A stretch of 64,000 nucleotides of DNA from Raja brachyura (lineage: Eukaryota), in NCBI GenBank assembly GCA_963514005.1, contig OY740790.1, positions 38,316,001 through 38,380,000 of the forward strand, read 5' to 3'. The position numbers and the translations under genes are program-made. Below, piece by piece: positions 5,095 through 63,831 of the stretch (positions within the stretch are counted from its first letter, which is position 1; every line of letters begins with the position of its first letter). The notes below the pieces were generated by a model that saw only the letters and a program-made list of their open reading frames with translations, was not told where the DNA came from and searched no databases.

Positions 5095-5525
5095 TGTGTC
5101 TAGGAAGGAACTGCAGATGCTGGTTTACACCGAAGATAGATGCAAACTGCTGGAATAACTCAGTGGGTCAGGCCACATCTCTGGAGAAAAGGAATAGATG
5201 ACGTTTCGAGTTGAGACCCTTCTTCAGATCGAAAGTCAAGGGAGAGGAAAACTAGATGTATGAAAAGGTACAAAAAACAAGTGAATAAAAGGTTTGAAAA
5301 GAACGAATCAAAGCCAGCACCGATGATTTGGACTATTGAGGGCTCCACCTTTCCTTGATCATTGGCGCCAGCTTTGATTTGTTCTTTTCATACCTTTTAT
5401 TCATTTGTTCTTGGTACCTTTTCATACCTCTAGTTTCCCTCTCCCCTGACTCTCCTTCTGAATAAGGGTGTCGACGCAAAACATTACCTATTCCATTTCT
5501 CCAGAGATGCATTTCTCCAGAGAAA
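5095..5525. mobile_element. Long fold-back PLE 3'-end element (two inverted copies of the terminal repeat)
   Basis: About 5175-5327 is the reverse complement of about 5357-5510; hammerhead-like motif on - strand near 5200-5227 and degenerate on + strand near 5458-5485. Confidence 0.75.
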
Positions 5526-5756: not shown

Positions 5757-6293
5757 AAGGGCCTGTCCCACCAGCATGCGATTGCATTCGGCTAGCGCGA
5801 CATAACGTGGTCGCTTGAGCCGTACGGCTTCGCGGGGCTGGTCCCACTTCGATTGCCGGAGGAGTATGGAGTTGTGCGGGGCTGGTCCCGACATCGCGCG
5901 GGGCTCCGAAAAACTGACACTGTCCAAAAATCCCGCGCGGCAACGGCCTGTCGGTCCGCAGCCACATTGAGGACGTATGCAGCGTCTTGACGTCCTATGC
6001 AACGTCTTGACGGCGTACGCCTAGCGCGTGGCGATGCACGATGACGCCACCGCCCGGCATGCCGTTGCATGATGATGTCACTGCCCGGCGACATGCGACG
6101 TCCAAATTCAGTCGGCCTGCCTCCTGCCCAGCTGATTGGTGAGTATGATGTCGGGACCAGCACCGTACAACTCCATATGCCTCCGCGGTTCGAATTGGAC
6201 CAGCCCCGCAAGGCCATACACCTCAAGCGACCACGTTTGGTCGCGCTAGACGCAAACAAACGCGCTAGACGCATGCTGGTGGGACAGGCCCTT
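5757..6293. mobile_element. Non-autonomous DNA transposon (MITE), GC/CpG-rich
   Basis: Perfect terminal inverted repeat AAGGGCCTGTCCCACCAGCATGCG ... CGCATGCTGGTGGGACAGGCCCTT, TA on both flanks, imperfect inverted arms extending about 140 bp. Confidence 0.9.
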
Positions 6294-7326
6294 TAGATTG
6301 GACTCATGTTGCTAACCTTTCCATAACCTGCTCCTACTATCCCAATATTCTGTGTTGAGATGAGGCATCAGAGGGAAGGTAGACATCTGACCTGTCCAAA
6401 CTACTGATGAAATAGGACCACCAAAAAGGGGGAGGTGGGAGAAGGATTCAGGAGAGCTCTTTTTATACTGTCATCATCAGGTTTTCTGCTGGTGTTGCCA
6501 GAGTTAAATTATGAAATAATATGGAAAATAATTTAGAAAAATTTGGGATTGTTAAGTATTAATTTGAAGCCATACTTTCTACTATATATCATTCCTGCTT
6601 CTCCAAATTTTGGCTAAACTGAGTTACTTGATAATGGTTCACCATGTCGTTGAATCTTGCACAATTGCCTTTCAAACCAAACTGGCAATGTTTATTGGTG
6701 GTATGGCTTTTCCTTAATCCCCATGTAAAAGGGACAAACATAGGGATTATGAATGAAAGGAAGTGTAATTCTTAGTTGATGGTGTGTGTTTTATGGAGTT
6801 TTGAATGTAGTCATTCTATGCTAGGCAAGTTCGAAAGTGTCCCCACTACAGATGTAAAAAACCCTTGTCTCTGGTGGGTTGAAAAGGCACCTGTACCCTA
6901 AAGAGATGGAGAAGTGGCATCTCTGACCACATTTTTGTCCTTTCGCACCCAAACATTTGAAACACATTGAATGTTAAAAGTATAATAATTAAGTACTCCA
7001 AAATAAACTGGTAAAATAAAGTACAAATGTTGTCCCAATTTCGATGATAAAAACACTTTATTTGTTTTTTGTCATAGTCAGGTCCTGTTTGGAAACATTC
7101 CATTAGTTTATATTCTGGAAGAATTTTGTTGATTTGGAAATATGCACACATCTGACTACCATGTAGCCATTTGCTTCTTGGGCTAGGCCAGCGAGTCTCT
7201 GGAAAGAAGATGCACATCAGGTTCATTTCCCTTACAAATCTCAATCTGAATGTAAATTTCTAGTTTCCATGATTTCCATAAGATTTGGAACTGAGACACA
7301 TAATTGGATCAGCTTTGTTCAGGCAT

Positions 7327-7421
7327 GTCTGAAGAAGGGTCTCGACCCGAAACATCGCCTATCTCCTTCGCTCCTTAGATGCTGCTGCACCCGCTGAGTT
7401 TCTCCAGCTTTTTGTGTACCC
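7327..7421 (+). mobile_element. PLE-derived mini-element with hammerhead-like motif
   Basis: GTCTGAAGAAGGGTCTCGACCCGAAACATC...; near-direct repeat CAGCTTTGT(T/G)CAGG at 7310 and 7434. Confidence 0.75.
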
Positions 7422-7440
7422 TTAACCTTGATACAGCTTT

Positions 7441-7795
7441 GTGCAGGAAGAAAATTCAGATGCTGGTTTACATCAAATGTACACATAAAATGCTGGAGTA
7501 ACTCAGCGTGACAGTAGGAATGGGTTACGTTTCGGGTTGAGATCCTTCTTCAGACTGTCAAGGGGGAGGGAAACTGGAGATATGGATAGGTACAAAGATA
7601 ATGTACCCATCCAAATGACACATCAAAAGCAGATGATGATCAAGGAAATGTAGAATGGTTCATTGTTGGCTGAAAGGAAAAGTGACAACGAGGCATACAA
7701 ACAGTAAAATGATTCAGAAGGACAGATAAACTAATTGGAGAACTAGGGTGGGGGAGGGGGCGGGAAAGCAAGGATTAAAGTTAGAGAAATCAATT
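7441..7795 (-). mobile_element. PLE 3' end (ORF tail, 3' UTR, terminal module)
   Basis: Reverse complement of the IDFSNF-coding end and of the module seen at 27996-28280. Confidence 0.7.
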
Positions 7796-8439
7796 GGTTG
7801 TAATCTTATCTGTGGAATAGTTTAATTTAGAACGGAAGATATTTTGCTTGTCCATTAAAATTTTTTATTTTAAATTGGAAAATGTGTATTTGTCATGTTT
7901 GTATTTTTACTGGAGCTTCGTCGATGCCATTTGCACTGCCATACTTTGCAAACAGACCATTTATTATTCTGCCCACATAGAAGGTATTCACTTACCATAG
8001 ACCTAGTTTGTTTTCCCTTTAATCATATGGTTGGGGTGATTTAATTGTCCTCTTAAAATGGAAAGGTTTTTAAGAGATTAGAATTAGAGAATTATTTTGT
8101 ATAGTTCGGAATGCAGACCAAGGGGGCAAAATGAGATTACAATCAAGACAGCGCCATGAATTTCCAATGTACAAAACTGGATGTACAAATGTACAAAGCA
8201 AGATAAATACAGATAAAACCTTAGCTCCGTGCCAAATAGAATGGTGAGATTATAAATAGTGTGGTTCAAATTGAGACAATGGATAGAAAGATAAATTGTG
8301 ATGTCTTGGAATGTTTTACTACATTAAAAGCACTATTTATTTATGTGCAAATTGGTGTTGTCAAAGTGAGTGCAAAAACAATTGGTTTAATCTTCAGTGT
8401 GGCTGGATGTTGGAAAAGCAACAATAATAGTAAACCAAA

Positions 8440-8826
8440 AGACATGAATTGCTGGAGTAAGTCAGAAGATCTCAAGAAGGATCCCGACTCGAAATGTCAC
8501 CTATCTATATTCTCCAGAGGTGCTGCTTGACCTACTGAGTTACTCTAGTACTTTATATCTTTTTTGTAAAACAGCATCTGTCGTTGCTTTGCTTTATCTC
8601 CATTTGCTTTTCTGTTGCCTTTGCCCAGCTGACAATGATGTATTCTACATTTTCCTTGATCTCGATTCCTTTTGTCCTGATTCACACCGTACACTTCCTT
8701 ATCTATGTATCTCCCTCTTCCCTGACATCAGTCTGAAGAAGGGTCTCGACCAAAAACATCACCCGTTCCTTCTCTCCAGAGATGCTGCCTGTCCCACTGA
8801 GTTACTCCAGCATTTTGTGTCTATCT
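8440..8826 (+). mobile_element. Two adjacent PLE terminal-module copies
   Basis: Motif variants near 8470 and 8733, each followed by CTCCAGAG.TGCTGC.TG.CC..CTGAGTTACTC. Confidence 0.7.
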
Positions 8827-9404
8827 GTAGTTGCTTGTATCTTTAATTTTGAGCTGAGCTCAGTGGTGAGTGTGACTGTAGATTCCATTGTCTTTAGATG
8901 ACGTTACAAAGAGGCAGCATGGTGATTTGAGAAGAGAAGAACAAGAAAAGATACCTGGGAGACATTTTAAGCATCTAAAGTGGAAATACCAGCCTGTGTT
9001 AGAAATGTTATGGCTATGATTAGAATAAGAAGAGTGGAATGAAGAGAAGATGGTCCTATTTAGATGTAGAGTAGAAAGGAGTTTTGAGAAGGGAGATGAG
9101 GAGGCGTGCATCACAAAGCAAACCATTTGTGACTTTGGGGTATTTCAATACTGTGGGAGAAGTGAAACCAGATGGATGGATTTAAATTTGAAATTGTCAG
9201 AAAGATAGGAAATTAAACTCAAGGATCAATTGGTTCACAGCAGCCATTCTTAACTTAGGGGTCGTGACCCCCATGGGGGTCGTTTGCGGTTTTTCCAGGG
9301 GTCATGAAGGGGTCCTAAATAATATCAATTTGTTGAGCCCATGTTTAGGAACCTAACAAAGGTACATACCACACATTTTGTTCACATATGCGCGTACGTA
9401 TACA

Positions 9405-10923
9405 CAGGGCCTATGAGTGGGGGTGCAGGGGGTACATCGTACCCTGGCCCAGAGTCCAAAATGGGGCCCGGGAGCTGAAGGAGGGGACCCAGGAATTTCC
9501 TGAAATCTCAGAAAATGTTTGCATATATTTTGTGAAGACTAGCATTAACATTTTGTGTGAGCCTACACAGTTTTATATATCATAATGCATAGAAATTGTG
9601 ATCCGTAATAAAGCAGAGATTTTTAATTGGGGGTGTAACCTGATTAAAAGAGGGGGAAGGATGGGGGGGAGCCAGCAGAGTCATCACCTGTATGGGTAAT
9701 GGGTCTTCCCTGTAGTGGGGTGGGGGGGGCACTCGGACCCAGCAATCAGACCACGTGCTGTCTGCAGGGTGGAGGTTGTGGGCCTGGCGCTGCACCTGGC
9801 CGGTGGAGAGGTGAAAGTCGGCAGAGTCGCTGGTGGAGGCCCGTGGGGAGCTGGAGTAGTGATATGGGCAGCAGCATCGGTGGCTTTCTGAAGACAGTGA
9901 AGGTCAGCGACAGTGGCTGTGGTGGCACCGCCTGGGGAGGTGGGGAGAGCCGGCAACCACAGCTGTTACAGTGGTCCGGGCCTGGGCTTGGGTGTGGGTG
10001 GGTGTGAGTGGGTGTAGGTGTGTGTGGGTGACTGGGCGTGGGTGAGTGGGCGTGGGTGAGTGGGCGTGGGTGAGTGGGTGTGGATGAGTGGGTGGGTGTG
10101 GGTGGGTGTGGGTGGATGGGTGTGTGTGAGTGTGTGAGGGTGGGTGTGGGTGGGTGTATGTGAGTGGGTGAGTGAGTGTGGTCTGAGTGTGTGTGTTCGT
10201 GGGAGGGTGAATTTTGTAAATGCACAGTTAAAACCATTAGATCTGTTGAACTTATTAAAAGAGTACAGTCTTGGTGACCTGTTTCCAAATGTTTGTGTTA
10301 GCTTAAGAATACTATTAACAACTCCAGCAAGACTAGCTTCTGCGGAGAGGTCATTTAGCAAACTCAAGCTGATTAAGAATTATTTAAGGTCTACAATATC
10401 TCAGGAACTTGTGGATTTGGCCAGGCTAAGTATTGAATCAAACATTGCCAGAGAAATACATTTTCATGCTGTGATTTGAAATTTTTCACAAAAAAAAGGC
10501 CAGGAAAGCTCTTTATTTTAAGTAAATACTATCTACCTTCTTTCACTTTTTACTAATAACGATGTCTTCTGGTGATCAGATCTGCATTGAAATATAAAAG
10601 GATGTTTCAATGTGAATTATTTCTCCTTACCTGTGTTGTAGCAAAAACAAAGATGTTCAAAACAAATGTGCTTTCTTCTTTCTGATCCTTTTGTATTTAT
10701 ATTTATTTATATTTATCATGGAGGGAGTATAGGAGCATAAGGCCCCAAATGCAGAAAATCAACAGAGCGCTCCATTCCACCCCTCTCTCATCTTCCATAC
10801 CACTTTTTGCCTGACAGCTCATGGCATAAAACCGTAGTGGATAAAAACCGGATGACTAATGGAGAAGGGAAGGGGGCCTGAAAGAAACATTGTACCCACT
10901 GATAAAATTTGTCTGAGGCCCTG
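9405..10923 (+). mobile_element. Non-autonomous hAT element nested in the Charlie-type element; retains the hATC dimerisation domain
   Basis: TIR CAGGGCCT ... AGGCCCTG; perfect 8-bp TSD CGTATACA (9397-9404 and 10924-10931); FPNV..SLRILLTTP...ASAERSFSKLKLIKNYLRSTISQE at about 10280-10410. Confidence 0.9.
9987..10203 (+). repeat. GT-rich simple repeat (GGGT/GGGTGT/GTGA units)
   Basis: Direct reading; it explains the low-complexity H/T/P ORFs on the - strand. Confidence 0.95.
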
Positions 10924-12941
10924 CGTATACACACACACAAACTGTGTGTATTGTGAACCCTGTCTTCCAAGATGCGAACGTGTAGTGAAACATTACTCAA
11001 GTTCGGCTTCACAAGCATTGTTCAAAAATCAGTGGTCAAGCCGCAATGTGTTATCTGTGCCAAAGTTTTGAACCATTAGAGCATGAAGCCCAGCAAACTG
11101 AAGATCCATTCAGAGTCTTGTCACAGCAACCTGGCAGGGAAAGACGTGGACTATTTCAAACGAAATGAAGCCACACTCAATGGTTCCCGCATCGATTCGA
11201 CGGGTCACTGTGCTCATCAAAATGAAGCAGTGTTGGAGGCTTCGTACCTGATTTTTTATCGAATCGCACAGACTAAGAAACCTTACAGCGTCGATGAAGA
11301 GCTGATCAAGCCATGCCTTCTTGAAGCAGCAAAGTTGGTGCTGGGGGTACAGCAGTCAAACAAGTTCAGGCAGATTTCTCTTTCGAATGACATAGTCAAA
11401 AGTGGAATCTCGGATATGAGTATTGATATTCTGCTGCAAGTAGTGAACGCAGTGAGAGCAGTCCAGTGTATTCACTGCAACTGGATGAGACAACTGATGT
11501 TGCCTCATGTTCCCAACTGCTAGTCTAGGTTCGTTACCTCGATGGAGAAGCCATGAAGGAGGAGTACCTGTTCTCGGAGCCATTGGCCACGATCAATCAG
11601 GGAGAAGATGTGTTCAGAATGTTGGAAGCCTTCCTCATCAAACATGAGCTTGGCTGGGAATGCCTTGTCGGGCTGTGTACAGATGGGGCACCTTCCATGG
11701 TCGGTTGCAGATCCGGCTTCAAAGCCTTCGTGAAGGATGTCGCTCCCCATGTTTCCTTCACCCACTGCATGATACATCATCATGCTTTAACGATGAAGAC
11801 TCTCCCTCCTGGTCTTCGAGAAGTGCTTTCAGATGTGGTAAGGATCATCCGACCCTTTTCTGTTGAAGACGGTGCCATCAGCGATACTGACGAGATTGCG
11901 AAGGTTGAATTTTACCGAATTCGTGAAGATGCCCAGCTGAAGAGTGACTTCATGGACAAGAGCTCGTCACGTTTTGGCTCAAATTGAAGGACTATCCTGT
12001 TCGTTCGAAGAGGGCCCTGACCCTATTGTTCCAATCCCCCTCAACCTATCGCTGTGAGGCTGGATTCTCAGCCACGGTAACTCTGAAAACACCTGATGGC
12101 TGCGAAGCAATTTCAGCCATCTCATTGGCAGGCGTGTTTTAATAAATCAGGCTGTTTTTTTTCAATTTTTTATTGCAGTGGTCACGGTACTGACCAAGAT
12201 TGTCTGATGGGGTCATGGAGCCAAAAAGGTTCAGAACCACTGGTTTACAGGGATAGAGTTTGACATTATTACCACATTTCAGCAATTTGCATGTATAACA
12301 ACTAACACAGTACTAAAAGCTCCTTGAATTTTGAAGTCAATTGAATCCAATGTGTGTACATATTGTATTCTAATCTGTGTGGAATTTCTCTTGTGTAATA
12401 GAAATGAGATTTGTTTTTTGTTAAGTTTCTGCAAACACGGATATATTTATCACAAAATTATGAAGACAAACCAATGAGGAAGTTTATGTGCAAGTCGGAT
12501 TGAGCTGTCAAAGTTCTGAGGGCCAGAAAAAAAGAGTTCAGGAATCACAGGAAGCAACGGAGCATTCAGTCGGGGATATCTTTGATGACAAAGCTAAAGG
12601 AGTAGAAGGCTTCAGTTTTGCTATTTAACTATTCTGCTAGCCTTTGATTCTTCCATCAATCCCCTTTGCCTTTTGAAGATAATTTGGAGTAGTGTTAAAC
12701 AGCCAGTGGGCACTCTCTGATTTCACATCGAAAGACCATTTATCCAGTTGTGAGTATTAGTGGGCCACACAAGGTGGACATCAGAGTCGGAGCCAGAATT
12801 GTTTAATGTTCATTATATAAAGATTAGGCTGGAAATCCCGGTTGCTATTCACTCTCATTTCGAGGTCCTCACCCCAATTATAACTCCTACTGCCATCAGT
12901 GAACTTGGTACCGTCTCTAGAGTAAACTTGAGAGATGTGTG

Positions 12942-14732: not shown

Positions 14733-14827
14733 TCTGAAGAAGGGTTTCGGCCCGAAAGGTTGCCTATTTCCTTCGCTCCATAGATGGTGCTGCACCCGCT
14801 GAGTTTCTCCAGCATTTTTGTGTACCT
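14733..14827 (+). mobile_element. PLE-derived mini-element with 13-bp TSD
   Basis: TACCTACAGATCT at 14723-14735 and 14823-14835; CTGAAGAAGGGTTTCGGCCCGAAAG motif variant. Confidence 0.8.
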
Positions 14828-23277: not shown

Positions 23278-23490
23278 AGGTAGACAAAAATGCTGGAGAA
23301 ACTCAGCGGGTGAGGCAACATCTATGGAACAAAGGAATAGGTGATGTTTCGGGTCGAGACCTGAAGAAGGGTCTCGACCCAAAACATCACCTATTCCTTC
23401 GTTCCATAGATACTGCCTCACCCTCTGAGATTCTCTGGCATTTTTGTCTACCTTTGATTTTTTCCAGCATCTGCAATTCTTTCTTAAACA
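23278..23490. mobile_element. Fold-back PLE-derived mini-element
   Basis: About 80-bp arms (23277-23360 and 23370-23454) in inverted orientation around CTGAAGAAG. Confidence 0.85.
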
Positions 23491-26006: not shown

Positions 26007-28280
26007 AGAGGTGTTCCATACAAGGACATCCGAGATGTCCTAATTCTTTAGCGAAAAGGGGTTCCCCTCTCCCAATGAGGTGTTACATCCCCGGACATCC
26101 GAGATGTCATCATTCTTTAAGGAATGGGGGTTCCCCTCTCCCATCATTGATGAGGCTCTCACTCGTGTCTCCTCAGTACCCTGCAGCTTCGCCCTTGCTC
26201 CCCCTCCCCCTCCCCCTCCTCATTCACCTCCCCCCCCCCCTAGTCACAACAGAGACAAAATACTTACCTTTCCACTCATCAGCCATCGCATACAACACAT
26301 TATCCTCCTAAAATTTTCGCCACCTCCAACAGGATCCCAACACTAGTCACATCATCCCATCTCCACCCCTTTCCGCCTTCCACAGAGACCAATCTCTCCG
26401 CAACTCCCTAGTTAATTCATCCCTTCTCACCCAAACCACCCCTTGCCCAGGTACCTTCCCCTGCAACCGCAGAAGATGCATCACCTGTCCCAATACCTCC
26501 TTCCTCAATTCTGTCCAGGGACCCTGACAGTCCTTTCAGGTTAGGCAAAGGTTCACTTACACCTCCTCCAACCTCATGCACTGTATCTGTTGTTCAAGAT
26601 GTTGACTCTTACACATCAGCACGACCAAACGTCGACTGGGCGTTCATTTCGCTGAACACCTTCGCTCAGTCCGCCTGAAACATAGAAACATAGAAACATA
26701 GAAAATAGGTGCAGGAGTAGGCCATTCGGCCCTTCGAGCCTGCACCGCCATTCAATGTGATCATGGCTGATCATCCAACTCAGTATCCCGTACCTGCCTT
26801 CTCTCCATTCCCCCTGATCCCTTTAGCCACAAGTGCCACATCTAACGCCCTCTTAAATATAGCCAATGAACTGGCCTCAACTACCTTCTGTGGCAGAGAA
26901 TTCCAGAGACTCACCACTCTCTGTGTAAAGAATGTTTTCCTCATTTCGGTCCTAAAGGAATTCCCCCTTATCCTTAGACTGTGACCCCTTGTTCTGGACT
27001 CCCCCAACATCGGGAACAATCTTCCAGCATCTAGCTTGTCCAACCCCTTAAGAATTTTGTAGGTTTCTATAAGATCCCCCCTCAATCTTCTAAATTCCAT
27101 CGAGTACAAACCGAGTCTATCCAATCTTTCCTCATATGAAAGTCCTGACATCCCAGGAATCAGTCTGGTGAATCTTCTCTGTACCCCCTCTATGGCAAGG
27201 ATGTCTTTCCTCAGATTTGGAGACCAAAACTGTACGCAGTACTCCAGGTGTGGCCTCACCAAAACCCTGTACAACTGCAGTAGAACCTCCCTGCTCCTAT
27301 ACTCAAATCCTTTCGCTATGAATGCTAACATACCATTTGCTTTCTTCACTGCCTGCTGCACCTGCATGCCTACTTTCAATGACTGGTGTACCATGACACC
27401 CAGGTCTCGTTGCATCTCCCCCTTACCTAATCTGCCACCATTCAGATAATAGTCTACCCTCATGTTTTTGCCACCAAAGTGGATAACCTCACATTTATCC
27501 ACATTGTACTGCATCTGCCATGCATCTGCCCATTCACTCAGCCTATCCAAATCACCCTGCAGCCTCCAAGCATCCTCCTCACACCTAACTATACCCCCCA
27601 GCTTGGTATCATCTGCAAATTTGGAGATGTTGCATTGAATTCCCTCGTCCAAATCATTAATATATATTGTAAATAGCTGGGGTCCCAGCACTGAGCCTTG
27701 CGGCACCCCACTAGTCACTGCCTGCCATTCTGAAAAGGACCCGTTTACTCCTACCCTTTGCCTCCTGTCTGCCAGCCAGTTCTCTATCCACATCAATACT
27801 GAACCCCCAATACCGTGTGCTTTAAGTTTGTATGAACCTACCTGATCTCCCGGTTGCTAAACACTTTAATTCTTCTTCCCATTCCCACACAGACCTTTCT
27901 GTCCTAGGTCTCCTCCATTGTCAGAGTGAGGCTAAATGCAAATTGGAGGAACAGCATCTCATATTTCGCTTGGGCAGCTTGCAGCCCAGTGAATATTGAT
28001 TTCTCTAACTTCAAGTATCCCTGGCATTCCCTCTCTCTCTATCCCTCCCCCACTTGTCACCCAACAAACAGCTAGCAATGGCCTGTTTCCTTTATCATCA
28101 TTACTTTTTTGCATATCTTTCATTCATTGTTCTTTATCTCTCTACATCATCATCTATTTCTCTAGTTTCCCTTATCCCTAACCAGTCTGAAGAAGGGTCT
28201 CAAACCGAAACGCCACCCATTCCTTCTCTGCAGAGATGCTGCCTGACCCGCTGAGTTACTCCAGCTTTTTGTGTCTATCC
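26007..28280 (+). mobile_element. Penelope-like element 3' half (GIY-YIG endonuclease plus terminal module), interrupted by a CR1
   Basis: PGTFPCNRRRCITCP...FQVRQRFT.TSSNL.HCI.CSRC..L..S.TKRRLG..FAEHLRSVRL | LPDLPVAKHFNS.SHSHTDLSVLGLLHCQSE....LEEQHLIFRLGSLQP; module CTGAAGAAGGG at 28187. Confidence 0.9.
26680..27832 (-). mobile_element. Young 5'-truncated CR1 LINE with an uninterrupted RT C-terminal frame
   Basis: ORF 26780-27796 (SGVPQGSVLGP, FADDTK, LVRPHLEYCVQFW), frame open back to 27832; (TCTATGTT)n tail; TGAA on both flanks (26676-26679, 27833-27836). Confidence 0.96.
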
Positions 28281-52703: not shown

Positions 52704-53539
52704 TTACGCCCGACCGACAGCGGGTCCAGTGTCGCTAGCTCCATTGCTGGCGTCGGACTTGGTGACTTAGGCGGGCATCCGCTAACAATACTATCATGGT
52801 CCTCAAACCATTTCCCTGTGGATCGCCTCGCCGACACCTCCTTCACTTTCTGTAACATTTTGACGGTCTACACCCTACAGCTAAAACAGAAAGTGAATGC
52901 ACGAAAGTTTGAAATTTACCCTGTGTTTTAAACTTACCGCTTGGACCAATACGTCTGACGTAATGGCGCACCAACGGCTGGATGGGGTTCTTCACGTTGT
53001 CACTCACGTGACTCCGAAGTAAAATACAAGAGATTTCAGGGCGAATATTCAATGATTTTCAATATTATTAATTCTGTATAAAATCCACTGAAAAAAAATA
53101 ATCCCAGGTTTACTTTTTTCACCATTTTAAATTTCATCAAATTATAGGTGATTGGTTTATAAAGCTAAGCTTTATATCTTAAAATGGCCTGTTGTGGGTC
53201 ACACAATTTGGAAAATTAGAATCTACTGAAAATTGTTGCTCTCATTCCCAATATGTATTCAACAAAATCATTGCGGAATATTTGATCACTTCTGCAGGTT
53301 CTGGTAATGCCACCTGCCAAGCATTTTGAGTCATGTTAGCTTCCACGTAAAGAGAGAAGTGCAAAACTCTGAGAACTAGTTTCGTATTTACATTTTCATA
53401 TTCCTTTACAATATTGAAGAATGCCATTTAGCCACTATGGCAGCTCTCAGAGCTATCCCATCAATTCCATTCCAGATTTCTTTACACATAACCTATTCTT
53501 TTGAACGTGTCTAGTAGCTCCCACCTTAATCTCCCCTAC

Positions 53540-60319: not shown

Positions 60320-61030
60320 ATGGAGATGCAGCGGAAGATAAAAAAAGCTAATGGTGTATTTGCCTTCTTGATGAGAGGATTGAATCAAGGAGTGCAATTG
60401 TAATTACTGCAACTGTTATTATATAAAAAAAATAACATCCCGAGAAGACTGAACAGACTAATGCAGGAATGTTGTTCCCAATAGTGGGGAAGACCAGAAT
60501 CATGGCTCACAACTTAAGATATGAGACAGCCATTTAAGATTGAGATGAGAAGTGATTTCACCATCCAAAGAGTGAAGTACCTGTGAAATCCTCAACCTTG
60601 GTTGAAGAATTGGACTTGGTTAAGGCCAATTCAAAAATATTTTTGTGAAGGAGTTAGATATGGTTCTCATGACAGGTAGACAAAAATGCTGGAGAAACTC
60701 AGTGGGTGAGGCAGCATCTGTGGAGAGAAGGAGTTGGCAACATTTTGGGTCGAGACGTTTCGGGTCAATCTGAAGAAGGGTCTTGACCCGAAACGTCGCT
60801 AATTCCTTCTCTCCACAGATGCTGCGTCACCTGCTAAGTTTCTCCAGCATTTTTTGTCTACCTTCGATTTAACCAGCATCTGCAGTTCTTACTTAAACAA
60901 ATGATTCTAATGGCTATGAAGATAAAGGGATATAGGAAGATAGCAGTAACACAGCAATCTGGATGAATAGCCATGATCACATTACAGGGCAGGCTAAAAG
61001 GGCAGAATAGCCTACTCCTATTTTGTATAT
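60320..61030 (+). mobile_element. Old CR1 relic interrupted by a fold-back PLE mini-element (60673-60900)
   Basis: KKANG.FAF...G and TR..AHNL remnants; insert flanked by ATGGTTCTCATG / ATGATTCTAATG. Confidence 0.7.
60770..60797 (+). ncRNA. Candidate minimal hammerhead ribozyme motif (PLE type)
   Basis: CUGAAGA-A-GGGU(CUUG)ACCC-GAAA-CGUC; core boxes intact, stem I weak. Confidence 0.5.
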
Positions 61031-61681
61031 CACTGTAAATGTGTTCATTAGTAGGCTTTATTAAATTTCATTTAAAAATGAAGTCATAAAAATTGGATCC
61101 ACAGTTTGACTGACAGCTATTGCATTGAATTGTTCCTGTTTAGGGGCTTGCCTGTGTTCTCTAACAATGACAGCTTTTTGGTTACATTTTGCTTTTATTT
61201 ATGTCTAAACAGTCACCCTGTTACTGTGCATTGATTAGGGTGTCAGCCTTATTGATGTGGCAAAAATCCAAGCGAAAATGTGACAGAAAGATCAGTCACT
61301 CGAGGGAAATAGATTGTAAATAATAATAGAATAAAAAATACACCTAAGGATGGGTAAAAAATACTTGTTTTGCCAACAATGCCTACATTCCATTTATAAG
61401 TACAAAAAAGCTCCGGTGCGCAGGCAGTTATCACAAAGCACCAACTGCAAACACTAAGTTCAGTGGTAAGATAGTATTGTCAAAAGTCATAATTTTGTGT
61501 GTTTTAATGATTGCAGTGCACAGAGATTTTTATTCCTAGTGCAACAAGTTATACATTTTGACTGGATTTTGTAAAAACCGTTTACACTTTTAGTAAAAGC
61601 AGATAAATGCTTCATTCATTTGTAGTTGATCTGTCTCATTTGATCTGCCATTTCATCATTATTTTCTTGCCCTATGTCCAT

Positions 61682-62090
61682 CTCCACTCAGTTCGCAATA
61701 TCTAACCTAATCTCCCGGTGGCTCAGCACTTCAACTCCCCCTCCCATTCTGAATCTGACCTTTCTATCCTGGGCTTCCTTCATGCCCAGTGAGTCCCACC
61801 ACAAATTGGAGGAGTAGCACTTCATATTTTGCTTGGGTAGTTTACACCCCAACGGTATGAACATTGACTTCTCCAATTTCATGGAGTCCCTGCTTTCTTC
61901 CTCCTTCCCCTCCCCTTCCCAGCTCTCCCACAACCTACTGTCTCCGCCTCTATGTTTCGTTTTCCCGCCACCCCCCCCCCACATCAGTCTGAATAAGGGT
62001 CTCGACCCGAAACGTCACTTCGCTCCAGAGATGCTGCCTTACCCGCTGAGTTTCTCCAGCATTTTCCAGCATCTGCAGCTCTTTCTTAAG
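61682..62090 (+). mobile_element. PLE 3' end (GIY-YIG tail plus terminal module)
   Basis: PNLPVAQHFNSPSHSESDLSILG...LEE.HFIFCLGSLHPNGMNIDFSNF, then module at 61989. Confidence 0.85.
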
Positions 62091-63245: not shown

Positions 63246-63428
63246 CACTGTCACAAGTACAAACTCTTTGAAGGCATCACAATTAAGCAGAATACTTCAA
63301 GTGTGGTCTCACCTAGTCCTATATATTTGAAATAAGGTATCTGTGCTTTTGTATTCAAATGGTCTTGCAACAAAGGCCAAAATGTCATTTGCCTTCCCAA
63401 TTACTTCCTGTCAGCATCAACATTTCCT

Positions 63429-63531
63429 GGGTTACACAAAAAGCTGGAGAAACTAAGCGGGTGCAGCAGCATCTAAGGAGCGAAGGAGATAGGCGACGTT
63501 TCGGGTCGAGACCCTTCTTCAGACTGCCTCA
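63429..63531 (-). mobile_element. PLE-derived mini-element with 13-bp TSD, inserted in an old CR1 (about 63290-63720)
   Basis: ATCAACATTTCCT at 63416-63428 and 63532-63544. Confidence 0.82.
63495..63522 (-). ncRNA. Candidate minimal hammerhead ribozyme motif (consensus-like copy)
   Basis: Minus strand reads CUGAAGA-A-GGGU(CUCG)ACCC-GAAA-CGUC. Confidence 0.55.
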
Positions 63532-63831
63532 ATCAACATTTCCTAGTCTTTTACCATTTAAACAATGCTCGTGTTTCTGAAGTAATTTGTACTGAAGTAG
63601 ATCACCTCACAGTTTTCTACATTGTACTCCATCTGCCATGGTTATTACTCAACCAGCTTTCCTATATCCACTTGAGGCCTCGGCAACCTCATCACAGCTC
63701 ATATTCCTATTTAGTTTCATGTCATCAGCAAACTTAAAACATTACTGCCTGTGCTTCTTGAGTTCACCCTCGAGAAATTGTCTCCATTTTCACCTTCCCC
63801 TTCTTCCCTACCTGGTTCTATTCTTTCCCTT

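What the first reader, a model, noticed from the sequence alone, without database searches (positions are those of the whole stretch)
63495..63522. High-copy minimal hammerhead-ribozyme-like motif in the Penelope terminal module
Seen: the 28-nt motif CUGAAGA-A-GGGU-loop-ACCC-GAAA-CGUC recurs in about 20 intact or decayed copies (e.g. 7329, 8733, 14734, 23361, 28187, 60770, 61989 on +; ~5227, ~7554, ~18317, ~55594, 63522 on -). Stem II is kept while its loop varies (CUCG, CUUG, and UUCG with a U-G closing pair at 14734). At 28187 and 61989 the motif follows a GIY-YIG coding end. Known: hammerheads need CUGANGA, GAAA and NUH, and PLEs carry minimal hammerheads with tiny palindromic stem III that are thought to act as dimers. 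Inference: the loopless ACGU palindrome here could form stem III only between two copies. Caveats: there is an extra A before stem II, and stem I has only about 2 obvious pairs (GU/AC or GU/GC).
Basis: partly seen in the sequence, partly recalled or inferred. Interest (0 to 1): 0.8.

Follow-up and report, generated by a model that had tools for sequence, protein, structure and literature searches.

The report
Minimal hammerhead in Penelope-like transposon ends
This is the small self-cutting-RNA motif already known from the end repeats of Penelope-like jumping genes; here it sits in a tiny dead stub of a very abundant family, so the catch is right but the kind is ordinary.

Summary
The motif is real: exact at 63522-63495 (-), 14 window matches against 0 in shuffles, 62,423 exact matches genome-wide. 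It fits the published minimal hammerhead (min-HHR) consensus of Penelope-like elements (PLEs) letter for letter. The 'extra A' and the loopless palindromic stem III are standard features of that family. It lies in the pseudo-LTR of a Neptune-type PLE; full 3,965-nt units of the same subfamily exist. The 63522 copy is a 103-bp stub between 13-bp target-site duplications. Only 3 of 14 window copies keep core, stem II and palindrome; copies decay neutrally. New here: short copies start 0-9 nt before the core and end at two fixed points, and almost none start at the cleavage site (388 against a control of 354 and 49,147 that run through). So genomic copies come from uncleaved RNA, as the published in-vitro PLE work predicts. 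Stem I is only 2 bp, and cleavage is untested. The scan noted this motif before in other genomes. Verdict: new member of a known kind; low interest.

The parts
63495..63522 (-). min-HHR motif: C3 at 63522, G8 63517, extra A 63515, stem II 63514-63511 with 63506-63503, loop 63510-63507, G12 63502, ACGU palindrome 63499-63496, C17 63495; predicted cut between 63495 and 63494
   Evidence: numbering by fit to the consensus
63523..63526 (-). 4 nt before the core; two of them form the 2-bp stem I with 63494-63493; 5' edge of the element-derived part
63429..63494 (-). rest of the pLTR stub, ending at +93/94, the first of two recurrent 3' ends (inferred RT start sites); 1 mismatch to the full-length unit
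63532..63544 (-). 13-bp target-site duplication, 5' side; 63527-63531 is a 5-nt filler
   Evidence: read directly
63416..63428 (-). 13-bp target-site duplication, 3' side
   Evidence: read directly
60677..60857 (.). inverted (fold-back) copy pair; the + copy at 60770-60797 has an intact core
5143..5485 (.). inverted pair; the - copy at 5227-5200 has an intact core, the + copy at 5458 is decayed
26008..28274 (+). 5'-truncated PLE copy (linker and GIY-YIG coding pieces 26008-26674 and from 27850, 3' UTR, decayed motif 28187-28214), interrupted by a LINE at about 26680-27856
61679..62065 (+). 3' piece of a PLE: GIY-YIG end, UTR, motif 61989-62016 with G8 mutated
14733..14824 (+). stub of the UUCG/U-G subfamily; palindrome broken
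7321..7421 (+). stub of the same subfamily as 63522; palindrome broken by a G>A change at the CpG
23281..23450 (.). inverted pair; G12 mutated in the + copy at 23361
41171..41272 (.). inverted pair, decayed
46351..46899 (-). decayed RT thumb and linker coding piece of the same PLE family

Best explanation
The motif is the minimal type-I hammerhead of a Neptune-type Penelope-like retrotransposon, at the 5' edge of its pseudo-LTR (shown). The copy at 63522 is a dead 103-bp retro-insertion (shown). Likely working, all inferred: transcription starts 2-3 nt before the core; the element's protein starts reverse transcription inside the RNA at about +94 or +130; copying an uncleaved transcript to its 5' end gives the many 95-130-nt stubs; long copies arise when RT starts in the downstream pLTR of a read-through RNA. 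The ribozyme is kept by selection on active lineages and probably cuts only slowly, as a dimer or with protein help. It would then act as an off-switch or processing step rather than a requirement for insertion. Odds: membership about 0.9; stub mechanism about 0.6; measurable cleavage with a partner or protein about 0.5.
For: Letter-for-letter fit to the published consensus. Position after the GIY-YIG stop in long copies, and one motif per 3,965-nt full unit, 163 nt before the first long-frame ATG. 0 of 11 core positions vary between five subfamily consensuses against 16 of 55 downstream; motif changes fall only at two loop positions, H17 and two wobble-preserving sites. Of 94 young copies: 39 with unique flanks start 0-9 nt before C3 (33 within 0-5), 34 run on into the UTR, 21 are inverted; 3' ends cluster at +92-95 (47 of 94) and +127-131 (22 of 94). 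127 of 216 tail-anchored copies contain the whole core and 2 of 216 start at the cut site. Genome-wide 388 breaks at the cut site, 354 at the next position, 49,147 running through. PMC11167929 reports two internal RT start sites, protein-assisted cleavage, and insertion from unprocessed RNA.
Against: No cleavage or RNA-end data: the runs were contigs only, probably partly DNA. The subfamily test is borderline (Fisher p = 0.053) and its references came from motif-selected copies. No covariation beyond controls. Stem I is 2 bp, and the ACGU duplex is only -1.7 kcal/mol, while the predicted best dimer (-19.7) is not the hammerhead dimer. Stem II forms with mean probability 0.09 in 59 copies folded with their tail. 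In 20 copies whose pLTR runs on into the ORF the 5' ends are scattered: 7 near the core edge, 9 at +47 to +112, 4 in the UTR. An extra cap-derived G is not clearly seen (G 4,579 against A+T 5,107).
Confidence: 0.75

Rival explanations
1. Cut-and-circularise model: the motifs of two successive pLTRs cleave as a dimer, the unit-length RNA is ligated into a circle that restores the motif, and RT copies the circle, giving intact cores and tandem arrays.
For: Proposed in PMC4209133. A circle would also leave intact cores in long copies. An array with five motifs 3,965 nt apart and three identical units lies inside one 15-bp target-site duplication.
Against: In that array the last unit differs from the inner ones by 6 substitutions and 1 insertion in its last 700 nt, while the inner units match the 5' partial unit; this fits DNA-level expansion of an ordinary partial tandem, not rolling-circle copying (inference). 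A circle has no 5' end at -2/-3, so it cannot explain the stubs.
Confidence: 0.2
2. The motif is catalytically dead in this lineage and is kept for another job, such as an internal promoter element or a protein-binding or RT-positioning signal.
For: 2-bp stem I; hammerhead fold not favoured in context; no trace of cleavage in copy ends; parts of the downstream tail are as invariant as the core; PLE clades without canonical HHRs spread well (PMC8557442 passages); Penelope has an internal promoter (PMC2377424 passages).
Against: All catalytic positions equal those of min-HHRs across phyla whose stems differ completely, and subfamily changes keep pairing and NUH. A related PLE HHR cleaved with protein and lost activity with core mutants.
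Confidence: 0.25
3. The short copies are a separate non-autonomous family (SINE- or retrozyme-like) that spreads from its own short RNA.
For: Sharp shared ends and individual target-site duplications; pLTR-derived retrozymes are reported (bioRxiv 10.64898/2026.07.22.740005).
Against: The 63522 stub is near-identical to the pLTR of a full-length unit, stubs share both 3' ends with long copies, and they are mostly solo or inverted rather than tandem (1 tandem among 127).
Confidence: 0.12
4. Chance resemblance to a hammerhead in a repeat.
For: Rfam gave no hammerhead match up to E = 10; no covariation within the genome.
Against: A generic min-HHR descriptor found 52 hits in 871 kb, all of this family, against 0-1 in shuffles; the motif sits where PLE HHRs are published to sit.
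Confidence: 0.03

Closest known systems
min-HHR of metazoan PLEs (Cervera & De la Pena 2014, PMC4209133; read: main text parts 1-2 of 4, supplement file 2 part 2 of 3 and a term search; file 1 not searchable)
   Same: CUGAAGAA core with the extra nucleotide, G10.1-C11.1, loopless palindromic stem III, NUH, place in the pLTR, mostly solo copies from truncated elements.
   Different: Stem II 4 bp (published examples often 5-8), stem I 2 bp (usual 3-5; 2 bp in D. virilis, Culex and Oikopleura rows), and 62,423 exact copies of one motif against thousands reported for coelacanth and Xenopus. No shark or skate row in the part read.
PAc (Poseidon) of Anolis carolinensis (Frangieh et al. 2024, PMC11167929; read: parts 1-2 of 4, no supplements)
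   Same: HHR in the pLTR, two fixed internal 3' ends about 36 nt apart (the 'tail'), insertions made from uncleaved RNA.
   Different: In PAc the ORF starts at stem II; here the first long-frame ATG is at +163 with a 41-codon upstream frame at +50. This element has the Zn-finger-like linker of Neptune/Nematis.
Neptune-clade EN+ PLEs (Craig et al. 2021, PMC8557442; passages only)
   Same: RT plus C-terminal GIY-YIG, CX2-5CxxC linker, partial tandems, inverted 5'-truncated copies, 30-40-bp tail.
   Different: Clade not confirmed by a tree; the unit examined has two overlapping frames (325 and 1,033 codons stop to stop) rather than one ORF.
Short-stem-III PLE hammerheads that cleave as dimers (Lunse et al., PMC5785218; not held; seen only as a reference and a review sentence in PMC6765202)
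   Same: Dimer-dependent stem III.
   Different: Cannot say; the paper may already list sequences of this kind.
Non-LTR retrozymes (PMC7229834, passages; bioRxiv 10.64898/2026.07.22.740005, part 1 of 5 and passages, supplements closed)
   Same: Type-I HHR, non-coding short copies, link to PLE pLTRs; the preprint includes one chondrichthyan genome.
   Different: Retrozymes are tandem repeats, with canonical HHRs in the first paper; these stubs are solo or inverted.

Membership tests
PLE min-HHR | Core CUGANGA, GAAA and NUH | tested here: met
PLE min-HHR | Unpaired nucleotide between A9 and G10.1; G10.1-C11.1 pair | tested here: met
PLE min-HHR | Palindromic 15.2/16.2 with no loop 3 | tested here: met
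   C-G in all five subfamily consensuses
PLE min-HHR | Short helix I (2-5 bp) | tested here: met
   2 bp in 32 of 47 descriptor hits of the main form; third position unpaired in 84 of 126; lower end of the published range
PLE min-HHR | Located in the pLTR, sense to the ORF | tested here: met
PLE min-HHR | Covariation or core conserved above neighbours between subfamilies | tested here: inconclusive
   0 of 11 against 16 of 55, p = 0.053; no covariation above controls
PLE min-HHR | Self-cleavage after NUH as a dimer or with protein | not testable with these tools
   only contigs were available
Canonical hammerhead (Rfam models; stable stem III, tertiary loop contacts) | Monomeric three-way junction matching an Rfam family | tested here: not met
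   no hammerhead family among 13 matches up to E = 10; no stem III loop
EN+ Penelope-like element | RT followed by C-terminal GIY-YIG | tested here: met
   RVT_1 E = 5e-4 and GIY-YIG E = 1.4e-3 in one frame, both below Pfam's cut-offs; YIDD and YIGET motifs visible
EN+ Penelope-like element | pLTRs, partial tandems, inverted 5' copies, 30-40-bp tail | tested here: met
   features as listed
Neptune clade | CX2-5CxxC linker between RT and endonuclease | tested here: met
   motif read; shared with Nematis
Neptune clade | Placement in an RT phylogeny | not tested
   no reference RT set was fetched
Non-LTR retrozyme | Short tandem repeats, each with an HHR | tested here: not met
   1 tandem among 127 full-core copies; 0 among 94

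The most novel reading that the evidence does not exclude
In this family the transcript begins 2-3 nt before the hammerhead core, so the ribozyme is a conditional self-decapping and self-disarming switch. A cut in the 5' pLTR removes a capped leader of about 30 nt, and a cut in the 3' pLTR removes both RT start sites. Only uncleaved RNA is copied, and internal RT start on such RNA mass-produced stubs on the order of a million. Cleavage would rise with RNA concentration or tandem copy number through dimer formation, giving a built-in copy-number brake, and same-strand stubs in host introns could pair and cut host pre-mRNAs.
Probability: 0.15. Interest if true: 0.65.

Novelty: new member of a known kind. 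Interest (0 to 1): 0.25.

Why it matters
The role of hammerheads in Penelope-like elements is an open question. This genome is a very large natural record of insertion ends, and it shows at scale that copies were made from uncleaved RNA, in line with one in-vitro study. It also supplies young, identical full-length units, so the native sequence context for a cleavage test is known. The motif itself adds only one more host and a very high copy number to a described family.

Tried and rejected
Rfam scan: no hammerhead model matched; its miRNA hits are fold-back copies. RNA evidence: the 24 runs listed were all contigs; 4 were laid and cannot show ends or cleavage. Long-range helix between the core strand and the tail end, as an inhibitor: probability 0.99 in the young unit but mean 0.45 over 59 copies; 151 of 2,000 shuffles and 27 of 260 other windows of the unit pair as well, so it is not claimed. 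Rolling-circle origin of the tandem array: not favoured. Cap-derived extra G: weak. Splice acceptor just before the core, as in D. virilis: not supported, because short copies share no upstream exon and mostly keep the last 2-3 bases before the core. Longer stem I: the third position is unpaired. Other min-HHR families: none in 871 kb. Selection on inserted copies: none; non-CpG core 0.057 against 0.068 downstream, p = 0.40, and core intact in 52 of 126. Rows dropped before counts: duplicate and array loci were left out; one search used 126 of 216 copies (near-complete ones); one search aligned 33 of 59, chosen by hand to span subfamilies; one search covers 94 exact matches from the first 4 Mb of one contig; one search covers 20 of 649 junctions. 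Literature searches found no paper describing this motif in a shark or skate or the -2/-3 boundary, but the Lunse paper, one supplement file of PMC4209133 and the preprint's supplements could not be seen and may hold it.

Full report
Observation. The motif is exact at 63522-63495 on the minus strand. The window has 14 matches at up to 3 mismatches and none in 100 shuffles, and 20 at up to 6 substitutions. The 2.7-Gb genome has 62,423 exact matches, with 0 for the reversed control. A profile of the downstream tail alone found 216 copies in 664 kb (60 stretches of 10 kb plus the window; control 0). That extrapolates roughly to 0.9 million copies. Only 3 of the 14 window matches keep core, stem II and palindrome together.

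The copy itself. Read, the 63522 copy is a 103-bp insertion (63531-63429) between 13-bp direct repeats (63544-63532 and 63428-63416), inside a decayed LINE fragment (LINE label from recalled resemblance to the LINE pieces seen). It differs from the pLTR of a full-length unit at one position.

The parent element. The window copies at 28187 and 61989 follow GIY-YIG coding ends. In long genomic copies the motif lies about 100-230 nt after that stop codon, in sense. At G000:C18 five motifs lie 3,965-3,966 nt apart. Three units are identical, and each has a 1,033-codon frame with RT and GIY-YIG matches (below Pfam's cut-offs) and an overlapping upstream frame whose ATG is at +163 from C3. The CX4CxxC linker points to the Neptune or Nematis group; no tree was built. 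649 exact pLTR-to-ORF junctions of this subfamily exist. The host looks like a cartilaginous fish; this is recalled resemblance plus earlier scan notes, not a test.

Fit to the known motif. Cervera and De la Pena define the metazoan PLE min-HHR as a short helix I, CUGANGAH, a helix II opening with G10.1-C11.1, GAAA, a palindrome and NUH. This motif fits at every position, and several published rows share the identical core with unrelated stems. The 'extra A' is one of the traits they list as conserved. A generic descriptor found 52 hits in 871 kb, all of this family, against 0-1 in shuffles. Rfam has no matching model at E up to 10.

Conservation. Five subfamily consensuses differ at 0 of 11 core positions and 16 of 55 downstream ones (p = 0.053). 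Changes within the motif fall at two loop positions, at H17, and at two sites where A-U becomes G-U. This suits a maintained ribozyme but is borderline, and the references were motif-selected. There is no covariation above controls. After insertion the core decays like its neighbours, and it is intact in 52 of 126 copies.

Folding. Stem I is 2 bp, with a wobble in the youngest subfamily. The ACGU duplex is worth -1.7 kcal/mol, the best predicted dimer is not the hammerhead dimer, and stem II is mostly lost in longer context. Published min-HHRs were inactive as monomers and weak as dimers, and the Anolis PLE motif cut only with protein present. Weak, assisted cleavage is therefore the expectation.

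What the copy ends say. Of 216 tail-anchored copies, 127 include the whole core and 2 start at the cut site. Genome-wide, for one subfamily group, 388 copies have a purine in place of H17, 354 have the matching break one base further on, and 49,147 run through; 5 of 12 inspected cases of the first kind were plain substitutions. Among 94 young exact copies, 34 continue into the 3' UTR, 39 with unique flanks begin 0-9 nt before C3, and 21 are inverted, nearly all turning at about the same place. 3' ends pile up at +92-95 and +127-131. Both 3' ends lie beyond the cut site, so linear templates were uncleaved. The two ends match the two internal RT start sites and the tail described for PAc.

Mechanism. 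Shown: identity, position, copy ends, neutral decay. Inferred: a transcription start 2-3 nt before the core (the bases there resemble an initiator, recalled; Penelope has an internal promoter), internal RT start, and run-off at the RNA 5' end giving stubs. Against this: the extra-G test was weak, and 20 ORF-linked copies had scattered 5' ends, with 7 near the core edge and none at the cut site. The circle model is not excluded for long copies, but the one array examined fits DNA-level expansion better. Read data were contigs only and say nothing on cleavage.

Novelty. The kind was described in 2014. Searches found no description for sharks or skates, but the Lunse paper, one supplement file and the preprint's supplements were not visible. 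Five earlier scan notes reached the same filing in other genomes; I read them after forming and testing this view. Verdict: observation confirmed, interpretation supported, new member of a known kind, interest 0.25.

Noticed in passing
window 49163-52734 (-): Several long frames that look like a DIRS-type retroelement (label recalled). Pfam gave weak matches to a phage-integrase N-terminal domain and PCIF1_WW for two of four frames, both below cut-off.
   Followed up: partly
window 26680-27856 (-): LINE fragment with a 358-codon RT frame (RVT_1 E = 4e-14) inserted inside the PLE copy that ends at 28274.
   Followed up: partly
window 10138-11987 (+): Decayed hAT-type transposase pieces; Dimer_Tnp_hAT E = 5e-9 for 10138-10476, no match for 11529-11984.
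   Followed up: partly
L117-L119 (G000:C18:46360022-46377241): 17-kb PLE array inside one 15-bp target-site duplication: a 1.2-kb partial unit, four full units and a pLTR. Its two original 3' ends differ by about 1%, which may mean a template jump between two RNAs.
   Followed up: partly
L117:5379-6353 and 5884-8982: The full unit has two overlapping frames (325 and 1,033 codons) and a 41-codon upstream frame starting at +50; a frameshift, intron or true two-ORF layout is unresolved.
   Followed up: no
L117:5300-5365 and related copies: An 8-9-bp inverted repeat in the tail is nearly invariant across subfamilies and is the main RNAalifold helix; it lies near the two recurrent 3' ends and might position RT. 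No covariation.
   Followed up: partly
L008-L015 (G000:C10:0.91-0.94 Mb): A tandem repeat of about 2.3 kb that contains a PLE RT fragment and a pLTR piece.
   Followed up: no
G000:C1:162939585-162940233 and C2:59590117-59590471: pLTR-to-ORF junction motifs repeated at 311-328-nt spacing, possibly short tandem pLTR derivatives (retrozyme-like).
   Followed up: no
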